A stretch of 24,904 bases of DNA from Omnitrophica bacterium RIFCSPLOWO2_12_FULL_50_11 (GCA_001804315.1 MHFT01000010.1:1-24904), one strand, 5' to 3'; positions 2,276 through 24,904 are shown, numbered from the stretch's first letter. Numbers and translations are program-made. Notes: generated by a model not told the origin, from the letters alone.

Positions 2276-2413
2276 GATTAAACTGACCCCTCGGGGAGTT
2301 TTTTTCTCCTTCCTGAGGGGTCATCCTGAGCGAAGCGAAGGATCTTGCGAGATCCTTCGGCCCTTCGGGCCTCAGGATGACGGGTCGGGAAACTCCCGAC
2401 CCGTCAATTAAAC
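2276..2413. repeat. Hairpin-rich interspersed element R1 (MITE/REP-like). Terminal inverted repeats GATTAAACTGACCCCTCGGGGAGTTT / GGGAAACTCCCGACCCGTCAATTAAAC; inverted core GTCATCCTGAG...GAAGGATCTTGCGAGATCCTTC...CTCAGGATGAC
   Basis: Nested inverted repeats read directly from the sequence. It fills nearly the whole mcsB-clpC spacer and its right TIR overlaps the mcsB stop. Related copies sit at 3488, 8645 and 22383. Confidence 0.7.
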
Positions 2414-9753: not shown

Positions 9754-12180
9754 TCAGGCCAAGCGTTCGAAAAACTTCGTTTCTAGTTCCTCGAGGCTTC
9801 TGAGAACTCCTGCGTAAGCGCGCCCGATGGCTTCCTCAAAACTTTTCCCCTTCGCCAGATACAAGATGAAACTGCGGAAACGACTTGCCCCGTACGTTTC
9901 AATCAGATACCGGACGAAAGCCTGCGATTCGCCGTAGTAAACGTTCGCTGCACCTCGAGTTTGCTGTTTGGGATCGACAATCGTGAGCAATTTGAGCGGG
10001 AGGAGCTTTCCTTGTGCCGCTGCCAGTTTGACGGCACGATTCAAGTCCTCTCGTTCCTCATCTTCCTGAGCAAGTGCGAAACCCTCGTGCAGCCACGTGG
10101 GCACGTTCCTATGTTCGCCGGTCAGCTCGTAAAGCACCAGATGCGCCACCTCGTGCGGAAGCGTCGAACTGAAAAAATGCCGCGATCCCAGGTACGTTGT
10201 GATCAACTTTTTTCCGTAATCGGCGTCACCTGCTGCCCAACTCGGTGCGCCACGTTTCTGTTGAAACATCTCCTGGTTCTCAAAAATAAAAATCCGAACG
10301 CGGCCGTCCTCCTGCCAACCTCGTTTCGGACCGTCATCATCCAATCGTTTCAAGATGCGGCCAAGATTTTCTTCGGCGTGCACCAAAACCTTCTGAGAAA
10401 GATCGAAATCTCTGGTCTTCAGGTAAACATTAAAGTGATCTCCCTTAAGCTCCACCCACTCATCTTCCCGTAACGGTTCCTCGTGTTCAGGTTTGATGTG
10501 CTCAAGAACACCGGAGTGCACAAGTAGGGACGGATCGGTCTCCTCCAAATCACGGTGGTGAAGCCTTGCGTCATCTTGAGAAAAGCACGGACAACTGAAC
10601 ACAAAGAGGGCGAAAAATAAAGACGCAAGTTGCCTTCCTCTCGTACGAGCAGAAACAATGGCAAAGGATACAATGAGAACGAACAAGCAAAAAAGAGGAA
10701 ACAAATGCCCACCCTGCTGGTACACCGTCCTCGCCCTTGGAAGCAGCACAGTACGCACGAGCCCGCCGGCGACAAATGTGTCATGCCTATGGGTGTCTTC
10801 AACACGATCGACGACCTCGCCTGTAAAACTCACAAAAGCAGAAACGCCGGTGTTCGCAGCGCGGACAACGGGCACCCCATTTTCAATGGCTCTAAAAATC
10901 GATGCTTGAAGATGTTGGTACGCTGCCGCACTCTTTGAAAACCAAGCGTCGTTGGTCAACACCACGAGAAACTGTGCTCCTCGTTCGACCGCCCGCCGCG
11001 CAAGCGACGGAAAAGTGTCCTCGAAGCAAATGAGCGGCGAAAAGCGCTTCGAATTTTCTAACACAAATACGCTCACATCTTCACCCGCCCGGTAATCCCC
11101 CACGCCGAGCGAATCCGCGAGGCGCTCCAAACCAAACATACCGAAAAACGGCCGCCACGGCACATATTCACCAAACGGAACCAAGCGGACTTTGTCGTAG
11201 CGCGCTTCGAGCCCGGATCCACGTTCCACCAGAAAAACGCTGTTGTAAGATCCTCCTAAAACATCCAAATAAGGACTTCCCAAAACCATCGGAACGTTGA
11301 GCTCTTTTTGAAATTTCAATATTTCCTCACGTTTCGGATCCAAATTAAAGTAACCTGGAAACGCAGCCTCGGGCCAAAGAATTAGCTCGGGCTTGTCATG
11401 TCCCACAAACCGCGTGAGGGCAAGGTGCGTTTCGAGAATCTCCGCTTTCCGTCCTGGATCCCATTTCACGTCCTGCGCAATATTTCCTTGAATCACCGCA
11501 AGTCGAATCTCATCTCCACGGACTGTTGGCTCGTTTCCACGACCAAGGAAAAAAGAACTCGCCAGGATGACAACGAGCGCACCAGTACCAACGGTACCAG
11601 GTACAGAAGGGACAGGTTCACCGAACCTGTCCCTTCTGTACCTGGTACCGAGAAACTGCACCACAAAAAAAATCCCAACATTGACAAACATGACGAGCCA
11701 CGAAACACCGAACGCCCCCACAAAAGCTGCGATCCGTGCAATGCCAAGGTTGGATGTCTGGCTGTACGCCAGTAAATTCCAGCCGAAACCCCAAACGGGA
11801 ATCTCGGTCCGCACCCACTCGAGAACAGCCCACGCCGATGGAATCAGAAAAAGAAAGGCGAAGCGCTGCTTCGATTTCCATACCGAACAAAACACAACGC
11901 CAAAGAGGCCAAAATAAAACGCGTACAAAAAAGCAACAAACACCCAGCCAAAGTACGTGACGTGACGAAGCCACTCCACAGAGGCAAAGAAAAAGAGGAA
12001 ACCCGTCAAGTAGAAGAAACTGAACGCATCGCGCACACGCTCAAGCCGCGCACTCAGACAGAAGATGGGTACAAAAGCAATCCAAGCGAGCCACGAAAAT
12101 GAGAATTTTGGAAAGGAAAGAATAAGGAGCAGAGCGGCGGTCAGCGAACAAACAGTGCCGTGGTACGCGTTTAGCGTCAC
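9754..12180 (-). CDS. lnt: Apolipoprotein N-acyltransferase (Lnt, CN-hydrolase) fused to an extra TM helix and a C-terminal ~290-aa HExxH zinc-peptidase-like (peptidase MA-like) domain
   Basis: N-terminal half: multi-TM region plus nitrilase-fold motifs IRLAVIQGNI, WPEAAFPGYF, SPLICFEDTFP, VLTNDAWFSKSAAAYQH, RAANTGVSAFV. Then a TM/signal-like LFFALFVFSCPCF. Then a soluble domain with HEVAHLVLYELTG ... WLHEGFALAQ (HExxH + EGxA). Proposed start is GTG at 12180 with SD GGGGGGGAGGAA. The ORF-track extension to 12336 overlaps secA and is unlikely. Confidence 0.8.
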   Translation of the reverse strand: MTLNAYHGTVCSLTAALLLILSFPKFSFSWLAWIAFVPIFCLSARLERVRDAFSFFYLTGFLFFFASVEWLRHVTYFGWVFVAFLYAFYFGLFGVVFCSVWKSKQRFAFLFLIPSAWAVLEWVRTEIPVWGFGWNLLAYSQTSNLGIARIAAFVGAFGVSWLVMFVNVGIFFVVQFLGTRYRRDRFGEPVPSVPGTVGTGALVVILASSFFLGRGNEPTVRGDEIRLAVIQGNIAQDVKWDPGRKAEILETHLALTRFVGHDKPELILWPEAAFPGYFNLDPKREEILKFQKELNVPMVLGSPYLDVLGGSYNSVFLVERGSGLEARYDKVRLVPFGEYVPWRPFFGMFGLERLADSLGVGDYRAGEDVSVFVLENSKRFSPLICFEDTFPSLARRAVERGAQFLVVLTNDAWFSKSAAAYQHLQASIFRAIENGVPVVRAANTGVSAFVSFTGEVVDRVEDTHRHDTFVAGGLVRTVLLPRARTVYQQGGHLFPLFCLFVLIVSFAIVSARTRGRQLASLFFALFVFSCPCFSQDDARLHHRDLEETDPSLLVHSGVLEHIKPEHEEPLREDEWVELKGDHFNVYLKTRDFDLSQKVLVHAEENLGRILKRLDDDGPKRGWQEDGRVRIFIFENQEMFQQKRGAPSWAAGDADYGKKLITTYLGSRHFFSSTLPHEVAHLVLYELTGEHRNVPTWLHEGFALAQEDEEREDLNRAVKLAAAQGKLLPLKLLTIVDPKQQTRGAANVYYGESQAFVRYLIETYGASRFRSFILYLAKGKSFEEAIGRAYAGVLRSLEELETKFFERLA
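11594..11649. repeat. Perfect 56-bp palindrome (27-bp arms GGTACCAGGTACAGAAGGGACAGGTTC / GAACCTGTCCCTTCTGTACCTGGTACC, 3-nt centre) lying in-frame inside the lnt CDS
   Basis: Read directly from the sequence. It encodes the polar peptide GTRYRRDRFGEPVPSVPGT between two hydrophobic Lnt segments. Confidence 0.9.
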
Positions 12181-12259
12181 TTCCTCCCCCCCTTGTTCGC
12201 CACAACGCGTTGGCGGAATCCGTCCCAAAACGCTTTGTGGCGAACAAGGGGGGGAGGAA
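12181..12259 (-). promoter_or_regulatory. Hairpin with a 25-bp perfect stem (TTCCTCCCCCCCTTGTTCGCCACAA ... TTGTGGCGAACAAGGGGGGGAGGAA, 29-nt loop) in the secA-lnt spacer; on the mRNA its 3' arm contains the lnt SD and abuts the GTG start
   Basis: Inverted repeat verified base by base. Minus-strand transcript reads 5'-UUCCUCCCCCCC...GGGGGGGAGGAA-GUG. Confidence 0.6.
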
Positions 12260-12293
12260 AAATCGCTAAACAGATACGTGCCGTGAAACACTT

Positions 12294-14971: not shown

Positions 14972-16091
14972 TTACGTCTTTTTCGATTGTTCCCGTGCCT
15001 CGTGTTTTAAATACGCCTCGATGAAATCGTCAAGCTCCCCGTCCATGACTGCTTGACCGTTTGAGGTTTCGTAATTCGTTCGGTGGTCTTTGACCAATGT
15101 GTACGGATGGAACACGTAAGAGCGAATTTGCGAGCCCCACGCAATTTCCTTTTTTTCGCCGTACTGCGTTTTGAGCTTTCGCTCCTCTTCCTCGCGCTTT
15201 TTGGCGTACAACCGCGCCTTTAAAATTTTCATTGCCACTTGTTTGTTTTGGTGCTGCGAACGTTCATTCTGACACTGGGCGACAATTCCTGTCGGAAGGT
15301 GCGTAATGCGCACGGCGCTTGACGTTTTATTCACGTGCTGACCGCCCGCACCTCCTGCGCGGAACGTGTCAATGCGCAAATCTTTCTCGTTGACTGAAAT
15401 GTCCATTTCTTCCTCGACTTCCGCAATCACATCCACTGAGGCAAACGAAGTGTGGCGTCTTTTATTAGCGTCAAAGGGTGAGATGCGCACGAGGCGGTGG
15501 ACACCGCGCTCAGCCTTGAGGTACCCGTAAGCGTAAGGTCCTCGGACAAAAAAGGTGGCGCTTTTGGTTCCCGCTTCCTCACCTGCAAGTGAATCCGCAA
15601 GTTGGACGGAAAAGTCCCGATTTTCTGCCCACCGCACGTACATGCGAAGAAGCATCTGTGCCCAATCGCAGGATTCCGTTCCGCCCGCGCCGGCATTGAT
15701 GCTCACAATCGCGCTGTTGGCATCGAGCGGACCGGAAAGAAGCCTCTGAAACTCAAGCATCTCAACTTCACGCTCGACCTTTTTGAAGTCTCCCTCGAGC
15801 TCTTTTAAGGACGCGTCATCGTCACCGACAATGCTCAAGAGTTCTCCGAGGTCTTTTACCTCCTGGTGTGACTTTTTCCACGGATCAATGAGCCGCTTGA
15901 GCGATTTGAGCTGGTTGACAGAGTTTTTCGCCTCGGCAGGAGCGTCCCAAAAATCCGGCTGGGACATCTTTTCGTTTAAAGACTGGATTTCACGTTCTTT
16001 TCGGTCGAGGTCAAAGATACCCCCTAATCTCTTCGAGCTTCGCGCCCGTTTGTTGGATGGATTTTGCAAGATTTTCGATTCGTTCTTTCAT
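14972..16091 (-). CDS. prfB: Peptide chain release factor 2, expressed through a programmed +1 ribosomal frameshift
   Basis: Frame 1 is MKERIENLAKSIQQTGAKLEEIRGYL then UGA. The shift site on the minus strand, AGGGGG UAU CUU UGA C, spans about 16010-16025. Frame 2 continues FDLDRKEREIQ... through GGQ (RAGGAGGQHVNKT) to 14972. Confidence 0.92.
16004..16025 (-). other. prfB +1 frameshift cassette: internal SD AGGGGG, slippery CUU, in-frame UGA followed by C
   Basis: Sequence AGGGGGTATCTTTGAC on the minus strand. The ORF-track entry 16011..16196 ends at this UGA. Confidence 0.9.
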
Positions 16092-16124
16092 GCGTGACCT
16101 CGTAGTTACGCCCCGATGAGTAAA

Positions 16125-16147
16125 CCCCGCACCAATATGGTGCGGGG
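16125..16147 (-). other. Stem-loop in the prfB 5' leader (9-bp stem CCCCGCACC/GGUGCGGGG followed by UUUAC); leader structure or weak upstream terminator
   Basis: Inverted repeat read from the sequence. It lies about 35 nt upstream of the prfB ATG. Confidence 0.35.
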
Positions 16148-16183
16148 CAAAGGGACTAATGACGTAAGACAAGACGACACCAT

Positions 16184-16212
16184 AGCTTAGCAGCAACGGC
16201 TACTGCTGTCAA
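16184..16212 (-). promoter_or_regulatory. Candidate sigma70 promoter for prfB-secA-lnt: TTGACA - 17 nt - TGnTAAGCT
   Basis: Minus-strand TTGACA (16212..16207) and TAAGCT (16189..16184) with an upstream TG. This gives a leader of about 85 nt to the prfB ATG. Confidence 0.5.
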
Positions 16213-16357
16213 ACAACCACAGAGTTCTCTGGCTGTCAACACAAACAACGGAGGAAAAATCATCCACGCTGTGCCCCATGGCGTTGAGCCGTGATGTGCT
16301 CAAGCTGCTGGCGGGTGCGTTTCAATTCTAATGCTAATTTCTTTTCGTCGGGAAGCG

Positions 16358-16972
16358 TCATCCGGCCTTATTGCGGGAAAGGGTGACGCGCTCGTAGAAC
16401 CGAGAGCTAATCTGACGATCAAGCTGGCGGACCGACCACCCGCCGCGCAGGGCTTCCACTTCGTAGAACTTGCGTGCGTGAGCAGTCCTTACCGTAAGAA
16501 GCCGGACATAATGAGACCAGGAAAGTGGAAAAATGGCCGCAAGGGCTTCCACATCCAATTTACTCAATCGTGTTGAGGATTTCTCAACAGACACTCGAGA
16601 TTTGCTAGACACCGTCTGGCAGATTCGAGATTTGCGAGACAGTGTCTGGCCAATTTGAGCAGGCGGGTAGGACAGGTAAAATTCACGCATCTGCTGAAGA
16701 TTCTGACGTGAAAAGCCTCGGCCGAATTTTTTGGTTAAATCTCGCGACAGATTTTCAAGAATTGCTTCCCCATATTCAGCCCGCTTTCGGCCTTTTTGTT
16801 CGTATTCGACAACGCGCCGACTGATCTCCCAGTACGTAGCCGTCAATATGGCATTTACAGAGCCGGCAACTTGGTGCCTGGCTTCTTCCAGAAGCCGCTG
16901 AATTCCGCCGAGAAACCGCTGGTATCCCTGCAAAACAGATTCAGATTTTAACCGTTTCATAATGCGTGGCAT
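16358..16972 (-). pseudogene. Degenerate YhcG/DUF1016-family (PDDEXK nuclease) gene; the N-terminal domain is retained and the nuclease core is deleted
   Basis: The YhcG N-terminal domain pattern (RLLEEARHQVAGSVNAILTATYWEISRRVVEYEQ...YGEAILENLSRDLTKKFGRGFSRQNLQQMREFYLSYP ... LSWSHYVRLL...GWSVRQLDRQI) stops after ...FYER. Only about 260 bp remain before prfB. A possible C-terminal remnant (ELKRTRQQLE) sits just downstream in another frame. Likely start is M50 at 16972 (SD GGGAGG, 10-nt spacer). Confidence 0.55.
16596..16655. repeat. Two tandem copies of a 30-nt unit (CGAGATTTGCTAGACACCGTCTGGCAGATT / CGAGATTTGCGAGACAGTGTCTGGCCAATT) inside the DUF1016 remnant
   Basis: Direct repeat, 26/30 identical. 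It encodes a repeated QT(L/V)S(R/S)KSR(I/V) peptide. An adjacent hairpin TGTTGAGgatttCTCAACA lies at 16571-16589. Confidence 0.7.
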
Positions 16973-17237
16973 TTTAACATACCTCCCTTTGAGAATCCTG
17001 ATTTTTTGGTCTAGGATCATCGAGGATTCAGATAGAACTTTGAGGGAGGCGGGTCGCTTGGCAGGCCGAAGAACTCTTTCCTCCTGCACCGCCTTTAAAA
17101 AGCGGCAATATGAATCCAAGAAGAATTCGAGGATCTGTGCATCGATTCAGGGATACAATACTTTCGGCCCTCAGATCGTTGGCTCGCTCGGGAAAAGATA
17201 CCTCAGGGGAACAAACTCCGTAGCCGATAATAATCTT

Positions 17238-17825
17238 ATGAAGAAAATATGGTCATGCGGTTTGCTGATACTGTTAGTGGGATGTTCGGTTCAAAATCCA
17301 AAGGACACCGAACGGGCTATGGCAGTCGCAAGCGAGTTTATAACACTGCTTTATCAATCCAATGACAATGTAAGTCGAGCATTCGCTTTAACATCAAACA
17401 ATTATCAAGTGGTTTCAAATGAAGGAATGACCCGAACGCTGCGGGATGTCGCAGGCGAAATTGTCGGAAATTATCAAAGACACGATCAAGGTACCGATGT
17501 GACTCGTTTGCTCGCACCCGATGCACCTTCCAATGGAAGAGTTATACGGTTTAACGTTGCTTATGAAAACGACCCTGAAGGCCAGCTATTGGTTACCATG
17601 ATAAAAGAAGGCGGTGTGTGGAAGGTCATGGGCTTCAATATCAACTCTCCAAAAATTGCTGGCCTTCAGGGTGACCCTGAAGGCCAGCTATTGGTTACCA
17701 TGATAAAAGAAGGCGGTGTGTGGAAGGTCATGGGCTTCAATATCAACTCTCCAAAAATTGCTGAGAGCCAAGCACGAGGAACGCTGCAACAACCTCCTGG
17801 TGGCAACCCGACGACGGCAACGTAA
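17238..17825 (+). CDS. Lipoprotein (signal peptide MKKIWSCGLLILLVGC with lipobox) with an NTF2/DUF4878-like fold and an internal perfect tandem duplication
   Basis: ATG at 17238 is preceded by a -10-like GATAAT 6 nt upstream. It has a lipobox LVGC. The ORF-track 5' extension to 16962 lacks coding signal. Confidence 0.65.
   Translation: MKKIWSCGLLILLVGCSVQNPKDTERAMAVASEFITLLYQSNDNVSRAFALTSNNYQVVSNEGMTRTLRDVAGEIVGNYQRHDQGTDVTRLLAPDAPSNGRVIRFNVAYENDPEGQLLVTMIKEGGVWKVMGFNINSPKIAGLQGDPEGQLLVTMIKEGGVWKVMGFNINSPKIAESQARGTLQQPPGGNPTTAT
17571..17763 (+). repeat. In-frame tandem duplication, period 102 bp (34 aa), two units 100% identical over 91 nt
   Basis: gaccctgaaggccagctattggttaccatgataaaagaaggcggtgtgtggaaggtcatgggcttcaatatcaactctccaaaaattgctg occurs at 17571-17661 and again at 17673-17763. 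It encodes DPEGQLLVTMIKEGGVWKVMGFNINSPKIA twice. Confidence 0.95.
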
Positions 17826-18142
17826 TCCAGAGAAACCGCGAAAGGAATCCTTTGGTCAATAAAGTTGCCTTAACTTTCAGGAACCTGACCCCAAACTGTC
17901 CGTTCCATTTACCATAACCCAATTATCGGAAATAAGTTTTCCCTGTAAATATTGGTCTCGAATGAACGGTATTTTTTAAAAAAACAGAAAAGATGCTGAC
18001 CTGGTTACGCAATCAGATGAAACAAGGGACTTATCAAAATTCAGCCGTTCTTCCTGATTTATCCGAAGAGGAGATACCGCAAAGAGGAGTAAGTCACTCT
18101 CGGCAATTTGAAGAACAACATCAAACGAAGGAGGATTTTCAA

Positions 18143-19006
18143 ATGATCAATTATATCTCGGGACTTGTCTTTACGATTTTGTTCGTCATTGGCGGAGCCA
18201 TTGCGTGGAACATTTACCTGGCTGATCCGACGCTCGCCGTTTGGTTTTCAATTGTTTGGTTCGTCGGAGATGTCATTATCGCACAAGCCATTCAACTGGC
18301 AGCGCAGTGGGAAAAAGGGGTTATCTTCCGGCTTGGCAAGTTCTCAAGCGTTAAAGGCCCAGGTATTTTCTTGATTATCCCCATCATCGATCAAGTCAAA
18401 ATGGTGGACCTCAGAATCCTCGCCATGGATATTCCGGCTCAACAAGTGATCACCAGGGACAACGTCCCCGTAAAAATAAACGGCGTCCTCTTTTTCAAAG
18501 TTCAAAACGCAGCCGACGCGATCATCAAAGTTCAAGATTATCGCTACGCCATCGGCCAATATGCGCAAACCTCGCTTCGTGATGTGATCGGACAGATGAC
18601 CCTCGATCAATTATTGGTAGAACGCGAAGAAATCGGAAAAAGCATTGAATCCAATGTGGAGAAAGACACACGTGATTGGGGACTGGAAGTAACGGGCATT
18701 CGAATGCAAGACGTCGACATGCCTGAAGAGCTTAAAAAAATGATGTCACGCCAAGCGTCAGCGGAACGCGAAAAACGAGCCACCATTACAAAAGCCGAAG
18801 GCGACAGAGAGGCCGCGATCAATCTTGCGGTGGCCGCGAGAACCATGACAGAGAGCCCCGGTGCGATGCAGTTGAGAACCCTTCAAACTGTTGACGGCCT
18901 TGGTCCTACCGCATCCAATACGGTCGTTCTTGCCGTTCCCGTAAACATCATGGAAGCAGTTGATCAGTTAACTCAAGCCTTAAAAACTAAAAACCAGAAA
19001 TCTTAA
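18143..19006 (+). CDS. SPFH/band-7 (stomatin/flotillin-like) membrane protein
   Basis: N-terminal TM, then an SPFH core (IFRLGKF...IPIIDQV...DVPVKINGVLFFKVQNA...) and a coiled-coil tail. ATG at 18143 has a strong SD AAGGAGGA 8 nt upstream. The ORF-track extension to 17993 is unlikely. Confidence 0.85.
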   Translation: MINYISGLVFTILFVIGGAIAWNIYLADPTLAVWFSIVWFVGDVIIAQAIQLAAQWEKGVIFRLGKFSSVKGPGIFLIIPIIDQVKMVDLRILAMDIPAQQVITRDNVPVKINGVLFFKVQNAADAIIKVQDYRYAIGQYAQTSLRDVIGQMTLDQLLVEREEIGKSIESNVEKDTRDWGLEVTGIRMQDVDMPEELKKMMSRQASAEREKRATITKAEGDREAAINLAVAARTMTESPGAMQLRTLQTVDGLGPTASNTVVLAVPVNIMEAVDQLTQALKTKNQKS

Positions 19007-19035
19007 AACTTGGACTGGGTAACCAAGGGTAAGTC

Positions 19036-19425
19036 GTGAAAAAAACAATTCTAGGGGCGATAATTGCTCTTTCAACTGCTTTGGCGATTGAATTGCCTCT
19101 CATGTTCAATTTAGAATTCACGCCTTTGCGCATCGTTAGAAATGTCGTCATGTATATTCCTCAATTTTTTGCCACCATGATTCATCTTTGGACGTTTTTC
19201 GGCATCAGTCCGAAGGCGTTTCACACGCTTACCCCAATCATGCAAACCCCATTTAACCTTTTCTTCTGGACTCTGATAGGAGGTGCAATAGGAAAGTGGA
19301 TGACAACGAAGCGTAACGCTTTGGTTTTCTTTTTAGTGGCTCTTCCGGTATGCTTTCTTGCAATGCTCATCTTTACAGTGGTTGTAAGTTTTGTTGTTAT
19401 TTATTCAGTGAAAGGCCGAGTCTAA
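19036..19425 (+). CDS. Small polytopic membrane protein (about 4 TM), unknown function
   Basis: GTG start. Strongly hydrophobic throughout. It lies 30 bp downstream of the SPFH gene and is AT-rich like its neighbours. Confidence 0.55.
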   Translation: MKKTILGAIIALSTALAIELPLMFNLEFTPLRIVRNVVMYIPQFFATMIHLWTFFGISPKAFHTLTPIMQTPFNLFFWTLIGGAIGKWMTTKRNALVFFLVALPVCFLAMLIFTVVVSFVVIYSVKGRV

Positions 19426-19578
19426 CCTTAATCGTCGATCGACATTCGCTCATTTGAATTTCTTCCAAGCGCTTCTTGCTATCCTATTGTGGATCGTGAT
19501 ATGGATTGGTTCCTACCTGGCTTTGATCGGTTCACTCCTCTTGGTTGCTAAATCCTTTGCTTGAGTAGGGCAAAAACA

Positions 19579-20097
19579 ATGGATGAATTCTTGACAAGCA
19601 ATTGGCAATTTGAATCTGAACTTTTGACTGAAAAACCAAGACCTGTATCCTATCGATTGTTTTTTTACAATAATTTCGAGGACTACTTCCTGCTTGGTGC
19701 GACCGGTTTCATGAGTTTGCTTTTAGGTTGGTTTGTCGTCACACATGTAAGGCTTGATTCCTTTCTGATCTTTCTGTTATTTGTCCTGCCTTTTCTCTAC
19801 TTGATCTTTTCTATAAGAAAGGAATTATCGATTCATAAGTATTTAACAGCACAGGGAGACCCGATTTGTGGTAAGGTCGAAAAGTATAGTTTATTTCGTT
19901 GGAGTGCCAGAAAGCATCGCCTACAACCCTTTGTCAGCTATGAATATCAAGGCAGGCATTATTTTGAGAAGGTGGTCGGTACCACCGCGTGGTGGTCAGG
20001 CGTCACAAAAGGACGCAATATCACCCTTTTAGTGGATCCTAATAATCCTCACATTTGTGCCATCTATGTTTCCATGCGCTATAAAGCCAAAAAGTGA
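19579..20097 (+). CDS. Membrane protein, DUF3592-like
   Basis: Two TM segments, then a beta-rich domain ending ...GRNITLLVDPNNPHICAIY, resembling DUF3592 C-termini. The start is ATG 19579 or TTG 19561. Confidence 0.55.
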   Translation: MDEFLTSNWQFESELLTEKPRPVSYRLFFYNNFEDYFLLGATGFMSLLLGWFVVTHVRLDSFLIFLLFVLPFLYLIFSIRKELSIHKYLTAQGDPICGKVEKYSLFRWSARKHRLQPFVSYEYQGRHYFEKVVGTTAWWSGVTKGRNITLLVDPNNPHICAIYVSMRYKAKK

Positions 20098-20876
20098 CCT
20101 CCGCAAAAACGATCACGAAATTCGTTTTGGCGTCAAGTTTGGGCTTGTGGCTAATCAGCTTTTTTCAAAAAGACCGTTTTCCGGATAAATCGGCCATTTT
20201 GCCAGAACTTTCTCGCCCACCCATTCAAACTGAAACTGATGCCCAGCCGTTTGAAATTCAGCGAAGAGGTGTGACCTATCGAGTCACGCCGATGCACGAC
20301 TATGAATTATATGGCATGGTGGTTTCTGAGAATGACTTCCGAGATTTTTGGGAAAAAGTACACGAGGATCTGAAAGATCATATCAACGTAAAGGATTTGT
20401 GCGTCATTTGGGGTCCGAATGTTGAATCTGGAATCTATCAGAAACTAGAATTCAGCTCAGGCGAATGGACTTGTTATTATGAGTGGAAGACGGGATCTGA
20501 CCGCGAATCTTGGGCTCAGTTTCAACCCAACGCGCTTTCCAACAACCATTTGCTTTCAGACAAAAGTGAGATTCTGGCGAAGACCGCACTAGCGAAACGA
20601 GGAGACCAAATTCATTTTAAAGGTCATTTAGTTAAGTACAGTTCAAATTTCATGAAGGCACCAAGGATTTCAAGTACCGTTAGAGAAGACAACGGTTGCG
20701 AAGTCGTCTATTTGACCCAGCTTGAAATACTCAAGAAGGCGAATCGTTTCTGGAGGTCTCTATTTTCATTGTCTGGTCGCGTGGCGTTGGTTTGTATCAT
20801 TCTGTTTATGAGCCACTTTCTTATCGAAATTGGCAAGGTCGTAAAGCACGAAGGGCGGAAGCAAAATGGGGACTGA
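20094..20876 (+). CDS. Hypothetical membrane-anchored protein (N- and C-terminal TM segments)
   Basis: GTG start overlapping the upstream stop (GTGA). No family recognised. Same AT-rich composition as the island. Confidence 0.5.
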   Translation: MTSAKTITKFVLASSLGLWLISFFQKDRFPDKSAILPELSRPPIQTETDAQPFEIQRRGVTYRVTPMHDYELYGMVVSENDFRDFWEKVHEDLKDHINVKDLCVIWGPNVESGIYQKLEFSSGEWTCYYEWKTGSDRESWAQFQPNALSNNHLLSDKSEILAKTALAKRGDQIHFKGHLVKYSSNFMKAPRISSTVREDNGCEVVYLTQLEILKKANRFWRSLFSLSGRVALVCIILFMSHFLIEIGKVVKHEGRKQNGD

Positions 20877-20880
20877 TAGG

Positions 20881-20916
20881 CAATTTTCGGAGCGCTCCGA
20901 AAATTGTGTTATTTTG
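20881..20916 (+). terminator. Candidate intrinsic terminator of the island operon: perfect 26-bp palindrome CAATTTTCGGAGC/GCTCCGAAAATTG followed by TGTTATTTTG
   Basis: It begins 5 nt after the stop at 20876. Stem plus T-rich tract. Confidence 0.5.
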
Positions 20917-21098
20917 ATACACCCTCAAAGCATCGTAAGGGTAAGTCTTATCATAAGATAGATCGTGAGCGAGCTTCAGAATGACCTTTTCTCCGTAGGG
21001 TGCGCGCACAGCCCTGAAAAAGGAAAAGGGAAGATGTCATGCCACCTTTTTGTGCCGTTTCGGTACCGCTGGTGAAGGGACAATCAAAGAATCAATGG

Positions 21099-21166
21099 CA
21101 CGTGCGGCGGAGGGCCGCGTCATTCCTTCCAGGCGGGCCAGGACTTCAAGCGGCGTATTTCGGAAC
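21099..21166. repeat. Direct repeat copy S1: a diverged duplicate (about 90% identical over 68 bp) of the uvrC 3' coding end found at 22598-22665
   Basis: CACGTGCGGCGGAGGGCCGCGTCATTCCTTCCAGGCGGGCCAGGACTTCAAGCGGCGTATTTCGGAAC versus CACGTGAGGCTGAAGGCCGCGTCATCCCTTTCAAGCGGGCAAGGACTTCAAGCGGCGTATTTCGGAGC. S1 still translates on the minus strand as RNTPLEVLARLEGMTRPSAAR but has no upstream ORF. Confidence 0.85.
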
Positions 21167-21177
21167 CCCCTAAAAAG

Positions 21178-21206
21178 TTGACATAGGTTATTCTACCGCG
21201 TAAAAT
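21178..21206 (+). promoter_or_regulatory. Sigma70-type promoter TTGACA - 17 nt - TAAAAT ending 6 nt before the ATG at 21213 (leaderless transcript predicted)
   Basis: TTGACA 21178-21183, TAAAAT 21201-21206. There is no room for an SD. Confidence 0.65.
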
Positions 21207-21212
21207 AACCTC

Positions 21213-22364
21213 ATGCTTATGATTCCCCGAGGGCTCGGTCCACTCCTGGCCAAGTCGAAGCGGAGCCTCTTACTCCTTGGCCCGCGACAGACAGGAAAAT
21301 CGACTCTGATTCAAAGCCTCAAACCCGAGCTTACGATCAATTTGGCCCACGAGCCGACCTACTTGGAATTCTCCCGAAACCCGCGAGAGCTTGAGGAGCG
21401 CCTCGCCGCCCGCCCTTACAGAACCGTCTTTGTGGATGAGGTTCAGCGCCTCCCGAGCCTTCTCAACACCCTCCAAGCGATCCTCGATGAGCAAGGACAG
21501 CAGATGAAGTTCTACATGACCGGTTCAAGCGCAAGGAAACTCAAACGGGGCGGGGCCAATTTGCTGCCCGGACGCATCCACACCTATCTCCTTGGACCGT
21601 TAACGGCCCGAGAAATGGGCTACAAGATGAAAACCCAGGAGGCCCTTTCCACAGGGACGCTTCCTGGAATTTGGACCGAACCGCATCGGCAGGAGAAGGA
21701 AAAAGTTTTACGCTCTTACGCAGCCGTTTACCTCAAGGAGGAGATCCAGGCCGAGGCCCTCACCCGGGCGGTGGAGGGGTTTTCGCGCTTCCTCTTTGTG
21801 GCCGCGGCTGAGGCGGGAAAGTTCCTGGACCTTTCCAAGCTCGCTTCCCAGGCTGCGATCCCGCGGCAATCGGCCGTGCGGTATTTTGAGATCCTCGAAG
21901 ACACGCTCCTCGTGCGCCGTTCGGAACCGTTCAGCCGCTCCGAAAGAAGGCGGCTCATTCAAAGCCCCCGATTTTTCTTTTTCGACACCGGGGTGCTGAA
22001 TGGCCTTTTGGAAAATTTTTCGCCCTCGCCTGACAGGATCGGGATGCTCTTTGAACACCTTGTCTTTAATCAAATCGTTCATAGCGCTGCCGCTCAAGAC
22101 ATGCCCGTGCGCCTCGCCTCCTACCGAACCGAGCATGGGGCAGAAGTGGATTTCATCCTGGAATGGAAGGGGGAAGTTTGGGCTGTCGAAGTAAAGGCCT
22201 CCTCCCAGATTCGAACTTCCGATTTAAGGGGCTTGGCGAGCTTTGCCGACTACTACAAAAAGAGACACCGCCCGGTAGTGGTTTATTTAGGGTCTGCCTT
22301 GAAAAGAGTCGGAAAAATTGACGTCTTCCCCTGGCTCGATTTCCTCAAGGAGGCCAGTCTTTAA
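21213..22364 (+). CDS. AAA-family ATPase of the COG1373/DUF4143 type
   Basis: Walker A LLLGPRQTGKSTL, Walker B VFVDEVQ, and the C-terminal DUF4143-like region (FEHLVFNQIV...WAVEVK). Confidence 0.88.
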   Translation: MLMIPRGLGPLLAKSKRSLLLLGPRQTGKSTLIQSLKPELTINLAHEPTYLEFSRNPRELEERLAARPYRTVFVDEVQRLPSLLNTLQAILDEQGQQMKFYMTGSSARKLKRGGANLLPGRIHTYLLGPLTAREMGYKMKTQEALSTGTLPGIWTEPHRQEKEKVLRSYAAVYLKEEIQAEALTRAVEGFSRFLFVAAAEAGKFLDLSKLASQAAIPRQSAVRYFEILEDTLLVRRSEPFSRSERRRLIQSPRFFFFDTGVLNGLLENFSPSPDRIGMLFEHLVFNQIVHSAAAQDMPVRLASYRTEHGAEVDFILEWKGEVWAVEVKASSQIRTSDLRGLASFADYYKKRHRPVVVYLGSALKRVGKIDVFPWLDFLKEASL

Positions 22365-22382
22365 AGTTCTTCCCATAAATAT

Positions 22383-22471
22383 CTGAGGGCCGAAGGCCAG
22401 AAGGATCTCTGAGATCCTTCGCTCCGCTCAGGATGACCCCTCGGGGGAGTTTTTCAGTCTTCCCGAGGAGT
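22383..22471. repeat. Interspersed hairpin element R4: a truncated copy of R1 in inverted orientation (…GAAGGATCTCTGAGATCCTTCGCTCCGCTCAGGATGACCCCTCGGGGGAGTTTTTCAGTCTTCCCGAGGAGTC)
   Basis: Its reverse complement aligns with the R1 core and left TIR. It starts 19 nt after the ATPase stop. Confidence 0.65.
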
Positions 22472-22571
22472 CAACTCAAATATTAAAACTAAGAACCAAA
22501 AGCCTTCAACACAGAAAGGTGCCACGTGCCTTCGTTTTTAGATGATACACAAAAGCCTGAATCCGTTTCGA

Positions 22572-24014
22572 CTAAGCTCGACGCAAAAACTCAAGGACAC
22601 GTGAGGCTGAAGGCCGCGTCATCCCTTTCAAGCGGGCAAGGACTTCAAGCGGCGTATTTCGGAGCTCTTCGAGCGAGGCAAAGGACTGAAGCAAGATTTT
22701 CTTCCGTTTTTCACCGATGCCCTCGATGCGGTCAAGAAGAGAACGCGTGAGCTGCTTTTCTTTAAGCCGCCGGTGGTACGTAATCGCAAATCGGTGCGCT
22801 TCATCACGGATCTTCTGAAGAAGCCTGAGGGCTGCCGAGTTCGGCTCGAGCGCAACGGGCACATTCGATTTCGGCGAATGAACCAGTTCGAACCGCTTGG
22901 CAAGCGAAATGACCTCCACGTCCGAACAATCCTCCGATTTGAGCACCTCGTGCGCTCGATTTAAATGCCCGCGGCCGCCGTCAATCATGATTAAGTCCGG
23001 AAGCGCACTTTCTCTGCCTTCCTTCACACCCACAATCATCCGCCGAACCGCTTCGCAAATCATCGCATAGTCATCGATGCCGGTAACCCCTTTAATTTTG
23101 TATCGGCGGTACTCAAGTTTATGGGTAAGCTCACGGAAGAAACATACTTTCGAGGCCACCGCTTCGTCTCCCTGAATATTGGAAACGTCGAAACAAATAA
23201 TTTTTTCCGGCAGTCGATCAAGCTTCAACGCTTGTTTCAATTCCAAGGTCCCGCGCAGGCCGATTCCGCCTTCTGGGCGTCTCAGATCAAATCGCTTCTT
23301 TCGAAACCATCCAAGCGCTTCAATCTGCTCTTTAAAAAATTGAGCATCTTCAAAGCGGTATTCCAATGCAGCCTGTTTCATCTTCTCCGCAATGTAATCG
23401 ATTAAGCTCTGCCGCCCGCCGCTTAAAAACTCTTTCATGTGCTTGACGAGCGAATCGTATTCGGGTTTCACTGCCGGTTTAATGCACGGCGCGATGCATT
23501 GGCCGATGTGATAATAAAGACAGGCCCGTTTCGGAAGCGTCCGGCATTTCCGAATCGGAAAGATGCTGTTGAACACACGCACAACTTCGCGAAGGAGCTT
23601 CGCGTCTGTGTAAGGACCGTAATAAGCAGCTTTCCTATCTTTTCGATTGCGCGTGACGAGCAAGCGTGGAAACTCGTCCCCCGTAAGCTTGAGCAGTGGG
23701 TAACTCTTGTCATCTCGCAGCTGCGTGTTGTAGCGCGGATGGTGTTTCCGCACAAGCTGGGCCTCAAGCAAAAGTGCATCCATTTCCGTCTGAGTTTCAA
23801 TCGTCTCGACATCAACGATTCGCCCGAGCAGGACTTCGATTTTTGGTGAGACACCCCGATTCTTGAGGTACGACCGGACGCGCTTCCTTAAATTGCCAGC
23901 TTTTCCAATGTAGAGGAGCCCTCCTCCTTTGCCCTTAAACAGATAAACACCGGATGTTTGCGGAAGCGCTTCAATTTTTTCCCGAAGACGATCACGAGCG
24001 TCAGAATTTGACAT
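22572..24014 (-). CDS. uvrC: Excinuclease ABC subunit C (GIY-YIG, UVR, RNase H-like, C-terminal HhH)
   Basis: GVYLFKGKGGGLLYIGKAGNLRKRVRSY (GIY-YIG), UVR helix ...RFEDAQFFKEQIEAL, and C-terminal IEGIGEKRKKILLQSFASLEELRNTPLEVLARLKGMTRPSASRVLEFL. SD GAGGAA lies 5 nt upstream. Confidence 0.9.
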   Translation of the reverse strand: MSNSDARDRLREKIEALPQTSGVYLFKGKGGGLLYIGKAGNLRKRVRSYLKNRGVSPKIEVLLGRIVDVETIETQTEMDALLLEAQLVRKHHPRYNTQLRDDKSYPLLKLTGDEFPRLLVTRNRKDRKAAYYGPYTDAKLLREVVRVFNSIFPIRKCRTLPKRACLYYHIGQCIAPCIKPAVKPEYDSLVKHMKEFLSGGRQSLIDYIAEKMKQAALEYRFEDAQFFKEQIEALGWFRKKRFDLRRPEGGIGLRGTLELKQALKLDRLPEKIICFDVSNIQGDEAVASKVCFFRELTHKLEYRRYKIKGVTGIDDYAMICEAVRRMIVGVKEGRESALPDLIMIDGGRGHLNRAHEVLKSEDCSDVEVISLAKRFELVHSPKSNVPVALEPNSAALRLLQKIRDEAHRFAITYHRRLKEKQLTRSLLDRIEGIGEKRKKILLQSFASLEELRNTPLEVLARLKGMTRPSASRVLEFLRRA

Positions 24015-24404: not shown

Positions 24405-24437
24405 CCAAAACTGTAGGGGCGCCCCTTGTGGGCGCCC
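24405..24437 (-). terminator. GC hairpin (GGGCGCCC-CTTGT-GGGCGCCC) between convergent rpsT and holA. The U-tract is on the minus strand, so this is a likely holA terminator and possibly bidirectional.
   Basis: 8-bp all-GC stem at 24417-24437. The minus-strand flank is UACAGUUUUGG. Confidence 0.45.
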
Positions 24438-24473
24438 GAGATGACAGCGAACGGACGCGCACAAGGCCCGCCC

Positions 24474-24904
24474 CTACGATTGCCCAACAGTGGCGAGGAA
24501 TGTTTCCATCGCAATCGTAGGCTCGCAGGCGCCGGTTTTGACCTTCCAATCAGTTTCCCACAGTTCGTTGAGAAGCTGCTCGAGTGTTTCGAGGTCAAAC
24601 TGTCGCACTTGATTGAGGAACACTTGAAGGCGAAAAGGCGGAATCCTGACCGCCCGAGCGACGTCGTCGCGGCTTCCCCCACGCGCCAAAATTTTCTTTG
24701 CCTGCCAAATCCGCTTAAGCTGCCAATGGATGAGCCCAATGGTACTGACCACATCACCGCTTAAATCACAGAAATAATGCAAAATCTTGATCGCTTCGCT
24801 CGTATCCTTCCGGGCAAGTGCATCAGCCAAATCAAACGGTTCATACCGGAGCCATTCGATCGCGAGTTTTTCGACCGCTCTTTCATCAATGGTCTCACCG
24901 TCCG
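24474..24904 (-). CDS. holA: DNA polymerase III delta subunit, C-terminal part (5' end beyond the window)
   Basis: The C-terminal region ...LKRIWQAKKILARGGSRDDVARAVRIPPFRLQVFLNQVRQFDLETLEQLLNELWETDWKVKTG is typical of HolA. It is convergent with rpsT, a common neighbourhood. Confidence 0.7.
   Translation of the reverse strand, partial: DGETIDERAVEKLAIEWLRYEPFDLADALARKDTSEAIKILHYFCDLSGDVVSTIGLIHWQLKRIWQAKKILARGGSRDDVARAVRIPPFRLQVFLNQVRQFDLETLEQLLNELWETDWKVKTGACEPTIAMETFLATVGQS

What the first reader, a model, noticed from the sequence alone, without database searches (positions are those of the whole stretch)
21099..22665. Single-gene DUF4143 ATPase cassette bracketed by a 68-bp direct repeat that duplicates the 3' coding end of uvrC
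The last ~68 nt of the uvrC ORF (22598-22665) are repeated with about 90% identity at 21099-21166. The mismatches are mostly synonymous or conservative on the uvrC frame (RNTPLEVLARLEGMTRPSAAR versus ...RLKGMTRPSASR). The upstream copy therefore derives from a functional uvrC 3' end, possibly from a different lineage, and now has no ORF attached.

The 1.4 kb between the repeats contains its own strong promoter immediately after the repeat, a leaderless AAA ATPase gene, and a truncated R4 hairpin element. This is the signature of site-specific integration into the 3' end of a protein-coding gene, with the element restoring the target's end.

The surviving unit is too small to encode an integrase, so it is either a remnant or a mobilisable cassette.
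Basis: seen in the sequence. Interest (0 to 1): 0.65.

Follow-up and report, generated by a model that had tools for sequence, protein, structure and literature searches.

The report
Defence-gene cassette inserted into uvrC's end
A single self-contained ATPase-nuclease gene (an untested anti-phage candidate) was inserted into the last 27 codons of the DNA-repair gene uvrC, and that stretch was duplicated so uvrC stays whole; this mode of insertion without an integrase is already known for restriction-modification genes.

Summary
An 80-nt direct repeat (86% identity, E about 1e-22) brackets a 1.4-kb unit. The right copy is the last 27 codons of an intact uvrC; the left copy is an orphan.

The unit holds a consensus promoter, a leaderless AAA_14+DUF4143 ATPase-nuclease gene (PADLOC candidate PDC-S01), a truncated REP-like hairpin and a terminator. 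There is no integrase, transposase or tRNA gene in the 24.9-kb window.

Three relatives have uvrC directly followed by prfB-secA, so 6.5 kb here is inserted. The cassette has its own base composition.

The pattern recurs. 8 of 61 homologous ATPase genes carry flanking direct repeats of 35-209 nt, against 3 of 165 neighbouring genes. The repeats are unrelated to each other and span the stop or start codon of an adjacent gene. Cassettes 92-96% identical lie in different flanks.

This matches "insertion with long target duplication" (Nobusato 2000; Furuta 2010), not site-specific integration. How the duplication arose is unresolved: recombination of incoming DNA that carried a uvrC end, or a staggered break.

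Verdict: a new member of a known kind, of moderate interest.

The parts
21085..21164 (-). Orphan copy of the uvrC 3' end (the displaced half of the target duplication). In the uvrC frame it reads RNTPLEVLARLEGMTRPSAARAIDSL and stays open to a stop near 21039. No gene body is attached.
   Evidence: The junction with the cassette at 21164/21165 is sharp. Similarity fades towards 21085, which corresponds to the hypervariable C-terminal tail of UvrC.
21165..21215 (+). Left end of the cassette. It holds the sigma-70 consensus promoter (TTGACA 21178-21183, TAAAAT 21201-21206). It also holds a palindrome of about 35 bp that runs from the -35 element to the start codon, and the leaderless ATG at 21213.
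   Evidence: 11 of 12 promoter positions; the palindrome CATGnGGnnAnnnTAC-nnn-GTAnnnTnnCCnCATG occurs in at least 33 of 46 homologues. 82.7% of cells are paired, against 27-42% when the pairing is slid, and 7 pairs show compensatory changes. The window's copy pairs at 11 of its inner 12 positions.
21213..22364 (+). 383-aa AAA_14 + DUF4143 ATPase-nuclease (PADLOC candidate PDC-S01). Walker A (G23..K29), Walker B (D75 E76) and the PD-(D/E)XK residues D313, E326 and K328 are all present.
   Evidence: E 5.9e-66; pLDDT 87.5. GC 56% and GC3 66%, against 48-53% GC in core genes.
22383..22445 (.). It is an inverted copy of 2312-2375.
   Evidence: It accounts for part of the 219-nt gap between the ATPase stop and the repeat in this window, which is 0-80 nt in the homologous cassettes.
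22516..22540 (+). Terminator-like hairpin plus T-run downstream of the ATPase gene, 30 nt from the uvrC stop codon.
22584..22663 (-). The copy of the repeat that is still part of uvrC (codons 451-476 of 480).
22572..24014 (-). uvrC, intact, 480 aa. It is the target gene.
16070..21084 (.). The rest of the 6.5-kb material that lies between uvrC and prfB only in this lineage. It holds a DUF1016_N (PDC-S02-like) fragment, a 287-aa ORF with a 102-nt tandem repeat, a Band_7 gene, a 129-aa ORF, a DUF3592 gene and a 260-aa ORF. Most of it has low GC (40-47%), so it was probably acquired separately from the ATPase cassette.
   Evidence: Relatives L013, L117 and L119 have uvrC directly followed by prfB.

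Best explanation
A self-contained, horizontally mobile gene cassette was inserted into the 3' end of uvrC without an integrase, by 'insertion with long target duplication'. The cassette consists of a promoter with a palindromic operator-like site, a leaderless PDC-S01 ATPase-nuclease gene, and a short 3' tail.

About 80 nt of uvrC (its last 27 codons) is now present on both sides of the insert. The copy joined to the uvrC body keeps the repair gene intact. The other copy is a dead orphan.

Shown here: the anatomy, the insertion relative to related genomes, the absence of mobility genes, and the recurrence of the same pattern at unrelated targets for homologous cassettes.

Inferred: how the duplication arose. 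My preferred route is that the incoming DNA already carried a uvrC 3' end from a related donor. It then integrated by a single homologous (Campbell-type, 'ends-in') crossover with the resident uvrC end, which produces the repeat directly. A long staggered break followed by fill-in is the alternative.

Also inferred: the gene's own role as an ATP-dependent nuclease, autoregulated at the palindrome and acting in defence or as an addiction module.
For: Anatomy.

Insertion:
- Relatives L013, L117 and L119 (UvrC 75-77% identical) share the gene order holA-rpsT-uvrC-prfB-secA-lnt-lysS-ftsX, with only 141-282 nt between uvrC and prfB. The window has 6.5 kb there.
- The cassette has GC3 of 66%, against 48-60% in core genes and 43-48% in the adjacent block.

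No mobility genes or tRNA.

Recurrence:
- Flanking direct repeats (E<1e-6, at least 30 nt) occur at 8 of 61 ATPase homologues against 3 of 165 neighbouring genes, Fisher p=0.0016. Two of the three control positives are one IS200-like transposase gene seen on two near-identical contigs.
- The repeats are unrelated in sequence. They span a neighbour's stop codon (L053 histidine kinase, L079 T2SSE ATPase) or start codon (L064 SIS-domain gene).

Discrete mobile unit:
- L065, L067 and L068 share 96% identity over 1229 nt, from about -47 to +36 relative to the gene, in different flanks.
- L064 and L072 share 94.6% identity over the cassette while their flanks are about 80% identical.
- L076 and L077 share 92% identity over the cassette.

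Homology carried by the insert:
- In L087 what appears to be the flanking gene's own reading frame (an IS481-like transposase by recollection; no family hit) continues past the upstream repeat into the 'insert'.
- In L072 the ATPase abuts the target gene with no orphan copy, which is a donor-like arrangement.
- In the window the mismatches follow the constraint gradient of UvrC.

Against: - No nucleotide-level empty site is available. The closest UvrC relative (85% identity, L114) lies on a contig that ends 26 nt after uvrC.
- All eight contigs of the same strain carry the insertion, so no polymorphism was seen.
- The substitution pattern does not reject a duplication made in place followed by drift. 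Pooled codon positions are 12/5/16, chi-square p=0.06. With the intact copy under selection, the observed share of non-synonymous changes (about 48%) is not far from the 59% expected.
- No donor arrangement with this ATPase next to uvrC was found among 82 loci.
- Only about 13% of homologous cassettes show repeats.
- A second Omnitrophota genome (L015) also has an orphan uvrC end downstream of uvrC. That could point to a uvrC-specific targeting system.
Confidence: 0.6

Rival explanations
1. Site-specific integration. An integrative element carrying a copy of the uvrC 3' end as attP was inserted by a tyrosine or serine recombinase. What remains is either a deletion remnant or a non-autonomous, cis-mobilisable cassette (CIME-like) that a recombinase encoded elsewhere moves in trans.
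For: - The direct repeats lie at the 3' end of a protein gene, and the gene is kept whole.
- The two copies differ mostly by synonymous or conservative changes.
- The 24 nt next to the uvrC-internal junction are identical in both copies.
- A distant Omnitrophota genome (L015) also has an orphan uvrC 3' end 2.3 kb downstream of uvrC.
Against: - No recombinase gene in 24.9 kb, nor in the 14.9-kb contig.
- Homologous cassettes sit at unrelated targets, with repeats of 35-209 nt and no shared core.
- No uvrC fragment lies next to any of 82 other cassettes.
- The uvrC junction in L015 is about 7 codons away from the one here, and its cargo is unrelated.
- The left ends of the cassettes vary in position.
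Confidence: 0.15
2. Autonomous single-gene mobile element. The ATPase-nuclease itself cuts the target with a long, variable stagger, preferentially at gene termini. The cassette is then inserted, and fill-in synthesis creates the long target duplication.
For: - Repeats are enriched at this family about 7-fold over neighbouring genes.
- The PD-(D/E)XK and Walker motifs are intact.
- The cassette is a compact, discrete unit with a portable promoter.
- Cassettes cluster or lie in tandem in 5 loci.
- Homologues are 63-77% identical in proteins whose source records name several different phyla.
- Furuta et al. proposed that double-strand breakage is the common factor for restriction-modification insertions (PMC2853133).
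Against: - No strand-transfer domain is evident. The fold search finds only AAA+ initiator-like similarity.
- The left boundary of the insert is not fixed.
- In L087, and apparently L055 (short contig, family unconfirmed), what appears to be the flanking gene's own sequence continues beyond the repeat into the 'insert'. A pure staggered-cut model does not predict this.
- L015 shows the same kind of orphan repeat around cargo that is not an ATPase.
- The repeat copies are already 3-24% diverged.
Confidence: 0.1
3. The repeat has no link to the insertion. It would be a leftover of a local segmental duplication or partial uvrC pseudogene, and the ATPase gene happens to lie between the copies.
For: Tandem duplication followed by recombination can give the same end product (discussed in PMC3457768). 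The window contains a 102-nt tandem duplication elsewhere.
Against: - The orphan copy ends exactly where the cassette promoter begins, and the other copy lies at the cassette's far end.
- The same bracketing recurs around homologous cassettes at other genes, far more often than around neighbouring genes.
- The cassette's base composition is foreign.
Confidence: 0.05

Closest known systems
Insertion with long target duplication of restriction-modification genes (Nobusato et al. 2000, Gene 259:99; Furuta, Abe and Kobayashi 2010, NAR, PMC2853133)
   Same: - Direct repeats of tens to hundreds of bp, variable in length and made of target sequence, flank a defence or nuclease gene unit.
- There is no integrase or transposase.
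- The repeats often span the stop or start codon of a neighbouring gene, so that gene stays intact.
- Single genes such as mcrA are among the cargo.
- Flanking repeats are significantly more frequent than around control genes.
   Different: - The cargo here is a PDC-S01 AAA_14-DUF4143 ATPase-nuclease, not a restriction-modification system.
- The host is an uncultured member of the Omnitrophota.
- The repeat copies are 14% diverged, whereas the published cases have near-identical copies together with an empty site in the same species.
- The mechanism is unknown in both cases.
Integrase-mediated genomic islands and cis-mobilisable elements (CIMEs) that integrate into the 3' ends of genes or tRNAs
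   Same: Direct repeats derived from the 3' end of the target gene, and the target gene's end is preserved.
   Different: No recombinase, no shared attachment core between related cassettes, unrelated targets, and variable repeat length and cassette boundary.
Campbell-type integration, or homology-facilitated illegitimate recombination, of transforming DNA (named from my own knowledge; not checked in the literature here)
   Same: A single stretch of homology carried by the incoming DNA would produce a direct duplication of that stretch around the insert. This explains copies that differ like alleles, and a flanking gene's own sequence that runs past the repeat (L087).
   Different: The donor configuration for this locus was not found. 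The homology is short (80 nt) and only 86% identical, which is poor substrate for RecA-dependent recombination.
PADLOC phage-defence candidate PDC-S01 (Payne et al., bioRxiv 10.1101/2024.01.29.577857; prevalence in PMC12988326)
   Same: HMM match at E 5.9e-66, the same ATPase + PD-(D/E)XK architecture, a single-gene unit, and a location beside another candidate fragment (PDC-S02-like).
   Different: Defence activity has not been validated for this candidate. In the 3 indexed papers that mention DUF4143, the 8 that mention COG1373 and the passages I read on PDC-S01 or PDCs, I found neither the flanking target duplications nor the conserved 35-bp promoter palindrome reported for this family.

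Membership tests
Insertion with long target duplication (Nobusato/Furuta/Kobayashi) | Direct repeats longer than 30 bp immediately flank the inserted unit. | tested here: met
   80 nt at 86% identity, 21085-21164 versus 22584-22663.
Insertion with long target duplication (Nobusato/Furuta/Kobayashi) | The repeat corresponds to a sequence present once at an empty site in a related genome. | tested here: inconclusive
   Met at the level of gene order and protein. L013, L117 and L119 have a single uvrC end directly followed by prfB. The relatives are only 75-77% identical, so no nucleotide-level empty site exists. The 85% relative lies on a contig that ends 26 nt after uvrC.
Insertion with long target duplication (Nobusato/Furuta/Kobayashi) | No integrase, transposase or other mobility gene in or next to the insert. 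| tested here: met
   Pfam, NCBIfam and PHROGs scans of the window's ORFs found none, and there is no tRNA gene.
Insertion with long target duplication (Nobusato/Furuta/Kobayashi) | The repeat is not a high-copy genome repeat. | tested here: inconclusive
   Only two copies occur in the 24.9-kb window, and the sequence is uvrC coding sequence. The rest of the genome is not available.
Site-specific integrative element / CIME | A recombinase gene in the element, or the same attachment core used by related elements. | tested here: not met
   No recombinase. Related cassettes lie at unrelated targets and share no core.
Site-specific integrative element / CIME | Recurrent use of the same target gene. 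| tested here: inconclusive
   L015 also has an orphan uvrC end, but its junction is displaced by about 7 codons and its cargo is different. 19 other uvrC loci show no such repeat.
PDC-S01 (PADLOC) | Match to the family HMM, with the AAA_14 + DUF4143 architecture. | tested here: met
   PDLC04790 at E 5.9e-66. PF13173 at 4.8e-22 and PF13635 at 4.1e-29.
PDC-S01 (PADLOC) | Catalytic motifs intact: Walker A, Walker B and D...ExK. | tested here: met
   The invariant alignment columns G23, G28, K29, D75, E76, D313, E326 and K328 are all present in the window's protein.
PDC-S01 (PADLOC) | Protects against phage. | not testable with these tools
   PMC12988326 states that validation is still pending for most PDCs.
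Integron gene cassette | A promoterless ORF followed by an attC site, arrayed next to intI/attI. | tested here: not met
   The cassette has its own consensus promoter. There is no IntI. The flanks are target-derived direct repeats, not attC sites.
IS element / transposon | Terminal inverted repeats, a short target duplication of fixed length, and a transposase. | tested here: not met
   No terminal inverted repeats at the cassette ends. The duplications are 35-209 nt and variable. There is no transposase.

The most novel reading that the evidence does not exclude
PDC-S01 (AAA_14-DUF4143) genes would be autonomous single-gene selfish elements rather than, or as well as, defence genes. [quoted passage not shown] The conserved 35-bp palindrome from the -35 element to the start codon would be their cis-acting control or recognition site. 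If so, the 'embedding' inside other defence systems that led to their prediction as defence candidates would partly be a by-product of this way of inserting.
Probability: 0.1. Interest if true: 0.85.

Novelty: new member of a known kind. Interest (0 to 1): 0.45.

Why it matters
PMC12988326 reports PDC-S01 as the fourth most common defence system detected across prokaryotes, yet its function and its mode of spread are unknown. This locus and about 80 homologous loci add three points.

- The gene travels as a minimal unit: promoter, palindrome, leaderless ORF.
- The cassette sits wedged against the termini of neighbouring genes.
- About 13% of copies carry long target-derived repeats, like those that Kobayashi's group described for restriction-modification systems.

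This extends that poorly understood, integrase-independent insertion mode to a second large class of nuclease genes and to uncultured phyla. It also gives a concrete test set for deciding between recombination of DNA that carries homology and nuclease-made staggered breaks.

For genome annotation, such orphan gene ends mark insertion scars. They should not be called as pseudogenes of the repair gene.

Tried and rejected
- Strain-level insertion polymorphism. Eight metagenome contigs encode the identical UvrC, and all are collinear with the window at 99.7% identity or more. No empty or alternative site was seen. L007 looked different in its gene calls but is the same sequence.
- A closer empty site. 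The 85%-identical UvrC (P0122, L114) and P0124 (L118) lie on contigs that stop 26 and 115 nt after uvrC.
- A third uvrC-end copy near prfB, which would mark the far end of a larger island: none.
- A donor configuration. The closest ATPase homologues (P0001 at 76-77% identity, P0005 at 72%) are not next to uvrC and have no repeats. tblastn of the uvrC end against 82 cassette loci found nothing.
- A search for a UvrC that ends with the orphan's tail (IVPSPAVPKRHKKVA).
- The synonymous versus non-synonymous test. It is suggestive (codon positions 12/5/16, p=0.06) but does not exclude an in-place duplication followed by drift.
- tRNA, Rfam, PHROGs and PDB sequence searches: no hits.
- NCBIfam could not confirm that the L087 repeat is an IS transposase 5' end. 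That identification rests on my memory of the ENLALRQQL motif.
- My A1 versus A2 identity profile for L064 used the wrong reading frame and is discarded. It did show that the 52-nt match lies downstream of the A2 stop codon.
- L050 and L051 'repeats' are low-complexity heptamer tracts and were excluded.
Full report
OBSERVATION

The repeat is real. Positions 21085-21164 and 22584-22663 align without gaps over 80 nt at 86% identity (69/80). BLAST E-values are 2e-23 and 8e-22. Apart from a 102-nt tandem repeat, it is the only long direct repeat in the window.

The right copy is codons 451-476 of a 480-aa minus-strand ORF (22572-24014) with GIY-YIG, UvrC_RNaseH and HhH domains, so it is uvrC.

In the same frame the left copy reads RNTPLEVLARLEGMTRPSAARAIDSL. 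It continues open to a stop near 21039 but has no gene body. Its uvrC-internal edge (21164) is sharp. Similarity decays towards the tail.

ANATOMY OF THE 1.4 kb BETWEEN THE COPIES

- 13 nt after the orphan copy comes TTGACA-17-TAAAAT at 21178-21206, matching 11 of 12 consensus positions.
- The ATG at 21213 lies 6 nt after the -10 element with no Shine-Dalgarno sequence, so the mRNA is leaderless (inferred from spacing).
- The 383-aa product has AAA_14 (E 4.8e-22) and DUF4143 (E 4.1e-29) domains. It matches PADLOC candidate PDC-S01 at E 5.9e-66.
- Walker A, Walker B and the PD-(D/E)XK residues D313, E326 and K328 fall in invariant alignment columns.
- An AlphaFold model (pLDDT 87.5) shows an AAA+ module, a helical and probably winged-helix middle part, and an alpha/beta C-terminal domain. 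Foldseek finds only AAA+ initiator-like similarity: Orc1/Cdc6, RuvB, MgsA and Cdn1, with low TM-scores. There is no solved homologue by sequence.
- Downstream of the gene lie a truncated inverted copy of a hairpin element also present at 2312-2391 and a terminator-like hairpin at 22516-22540.

IT IS AN INSERTION

The organism belongs to the Omnitrophota. Three relatives with UvrC 75-77% identical (L013, L117, L119) share the window's gene order: holA-rpsT-uvrC-prfB-secA-lnt-lysS-ftsX. In them only 141-282 nt separate uvrC from prfB. The window has 6.5 kb there (16070-22571).

That interval is a mosaic in base composition:
- the ATPase gene has 56% GC and GC3 of 66%;
- core genes have 48-53% GC;
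- the adjacent 129-aa, DUF3592 and 260-aa genes have 40-44% GC.

The ATPase cassette was therefore acquired separately from its neighbours.

No integrase, transposase, tRNA gene or Rfam family is present in the 24.9 kb.

Eight contigs from several metagenomes carry the same strain and the same arrangement, so no polymorphism was seen.

THE PATTERN RECURS IN THE GENE FAMILY

The ATPase has thousands of homologues. The top 120 listed are 63-77% identical, and their source names cover Omnitrophota, Patescibacteria, Elusimicrobia, Melainabacteria and Deltaproteobacteria.

I fetched 80 homologous metagenome loci and compared the upstream with the downstream flank of each gene.

- 8 of 61 testable ATPase genes have flanking direct repeats (E<1e-6, at least 30 nt). 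Among neighbouring genes the count is 3 of 165. Fisher p=0.0016.
- Two of the three control positives are one IS200-like transposase gene seen on two near-identical contigs (L043/L044), which is itself mobile.
- The repeats are 35-209 nt long, 76-97% identical, and unrelated to each other.

The repeats span gene termini:
- the stop codon of a convergent histidine kinase gene in L053, where the orphan even keeps the stop codon;
- the stop codon of a T2SSE ATPase gene in L079;
- the start codon of a SIS-domain gene in L064, where two successive cassettes are separated by copies of the target. There the second duplication covers both the 3' end of the first ATPase gene and the 5' end of the SIS gene, so both neighbours stay intact.

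No other cassette has a uvrC fragment beside it.

THE CASSETTE IS A DISCRETE UNIT

Near-identical cassettes occur in different flanks:
- L065, L067 and L068 are 96% identical over 1229 nt, from about 47 nt upstream of the ATG to about 36 nt after the stop codon, and then diverge.
- L064 and L072 are 94.6% identical over the cassette, while the syntenic flanking genes are only about 80% identical.
- L076 and L077 are 92% identical over the cassette.

The 35 nt ending in the start codon form a palindrome, CATGnGGnnAnnnTAC-nnn-GTAnnnTnnCCnCATG, that overlaps the -35 and -10 elements. It is present in at least 33 of 46 distinct homologues. 82.7% of cells pair, against 27-42% when the pairing is slid, and 7 pairs show compensatory changes. 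One caveat: the sequences were chosen for having at least 10 of 16 pairs.

I read the palindrome as an autoregulatory operator that travels with the gene. That reading is an inference.

WHAT IT IS

These features match 'insertion with long target duplication', described by Kobayashi's group for restriction-modification genes. The defining features in that work are:
- long, variable, target-derived direct repeats;
- no mobility gene;
- occurrence with single nuclease genes such as mcrA;
- flanking repeats significantly more frequent than around control genes (PMC2853133; also PMC3457768).

The mechanism is still unknown in that literature.

The site-specific reading fails its defining tests: there is no recombinase, no shared core, and the targets are unrelated.

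HOW THE DUPLICATION AROSE (INFERRED)

Two routes give the same end product.

(a) The incoming DNA already carried a uvrC 3' end from a related donor and integrated by one homologous crossover (Campbell or ends-in type).

(b) A long staggered break in uvrC was followed by fill-in synthesis.

I favour (a) for three reasons.
- In the window, 5 of 11 differences are synonymous and the replacements are mostly conservative. Eight of 11 mismatches fall in the 30 nt that encode the hypervariable tail, none falls in the 24 nt next to the junction, and there are no indels.
- In L087 what appears to be the flanking gene's own reading frame (my identification as a transposase 5' end got no family hit) continues beyond the upstream repeat into the 'insert'. 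A staggered cut does not predict this. L055 looks similar, but its contig is too short to be sure.
- L072 shows a donor-like arrangement, with the cassette abutting the target gene and no orphan copy.

The statistics are weak, however. Pooled codon positions are 12/5/16 (p=0.06). An in-place duplication followed by drift, allele replacement or gene conversion is not excluded.

OPEN POINT

A distant Omnitrophota chromosome (L015, CP070837) also carries an orphan uvrC 3' end (72 nt, 75% identity) 2.3 kb downstream of uvrC and before prfB-secA. It is fused to a partial duplicate of an MGMT-like gene, and no DUF4143 gene is nearby.

This shows two things. The uvrC-prfB junction is a recurrent insertion site in this phylum, and the duplication-making process is not specific to the ATPase cargo. 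It keeps a small probability alive for a uvrC-targeting system. Against that, the junction in L015 lies about 7 codons from the one here.

VERDICT

The finding is a new member of a known kind. The extension to PDC-S01 is of moderate interest because this is a very abundant, uncharacterised defence candidate that was originally predicted from being 'embedded' in other systems. In the 3 indexed papers that mention DUF4143, the 8 that mention COG1373 and the passages I read on PDC-S01 or PDCs, I found neither the extension nor the travelling palindromic promoter reported for this family.

Noticed in passing
window 21181-21215; homologous loci L034-L116: A palindrome of about 35 bp (CATGnGGnnAnnnTAC-nnn-GTAnnnTnnCCnCATG) runs from the -35 hexamer to the leaderless start codon of the ATPase gene. 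It is conserved in at least 33 of 46 homologues, and its arms covary (for example GTGGTTA/TAACCAC, GCGGGCA/TGCCCGC, GTGCTCA/TGAGCAC). It is probably an autoregulatory operator. In read-through transcripts it would fold into a hairpin that hides the AUG.
   Followed up: partly
L015 9313-9384 and 11723-11793 (CP070837.1, Candidatus Omnitrophota bin103): This is a second, independent orphan copy of a uvrC 3' end (72 nt, 75% identity). It lies 2.3 kb downstream of uvrC and before prfB-secA. It is fused in frame to a partial duplicate of an MGMT-like gene whose full copy lies 900 nt further on, with an alpha/beta hydrolase gene between the two MGMT copies. The structure looks like nested insertions with long duplications, and no DUF4143 gene is present.
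   Followed up: partly
L064 4798-7613 versus L072 1503-2797: Two ATPase cassettes lie in tandem, separated by three copies of the 5' end of a SIS-domain gene. The second duplication also includes the last 52 nt of the first ATPase gene. The related genome L072 has one cassette, 94.6% identical, and no orphan copy. The first cassette in L064 has ATA where the ATG start codon should be.
   Followed up: partly
window 17571-17661 and 17673-17763: A perfect 91-nt repeat with a period of 102 nt (34 codons) lies inside the 287-aa ORF at 16962-17825. Contigs L001, L002 and L003 of the same strain carry only one unit, so the copy number varies between populations.
   Followed up: partly
window 16358-17119 (-): This ORF is a DUF1016_N / PADLOC PDC-S02-like gene of 253 aa. 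No C-terminal nuclease domain was detected, and it overlaps the 287-aa ORF on the other strand. It is probably a truncated remnant of a second defence candidate in the same island. Gene calls on the L001 contig split it into 200-aa and 33-aa products.
   Followed up: no
window 2310-2391 and 22383-22445: A REP/MITE-like hairpin element of about 80 nt is present at least twice in 25 kb in opposite orientations. The copy inside the cassette spacer lacks one outer stem arm.
   Followed up: partly
window 11592-11650 and 12169-12271: A perfect 28-nt-arm palindrome with a 3-nt loop, and a hairpin with 43-nt arms (88% complementary), both lie inside or at the end of the 860-aa LNT_N/CN_hydrolase/Peptidase_MA_2 ORF (lnt-like), close to the secA stop codon. 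Perfect palindromes this long are unusual in coding sequence.
   Followed up: no
window 24405-24494: The hairpin region downstream of rpsT (arms 24413-24438 and 24452-24477) is a breakpoint or variable spot among contigs of the same strain. L002 and L004 align in two pieces that skip about 30-50 nt here.
   Followed up: no
L114 (ends 26 nt after uvrC) and L118 (ends 115 nt after uvrC): The contigs of two of the closest UvrC relatives both break just downstream of uvrC. This would be expected if the uvrC-prfB junction is variable or repeat-bearing in those populations too.
   Followed up: no
L115 5940-6001: In the locus of the closest ATPase homologue (76-77% identical), an upstream MFS transporter ORF reads through the cassette's -35 and -10 region and stops 9 nt before the ATPase ATG. 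A convergent gene ends 24 nt after the ATPase stop codon. The cassette is wedged between the two genes, and no repeat is detectable.
   Followed up: partly
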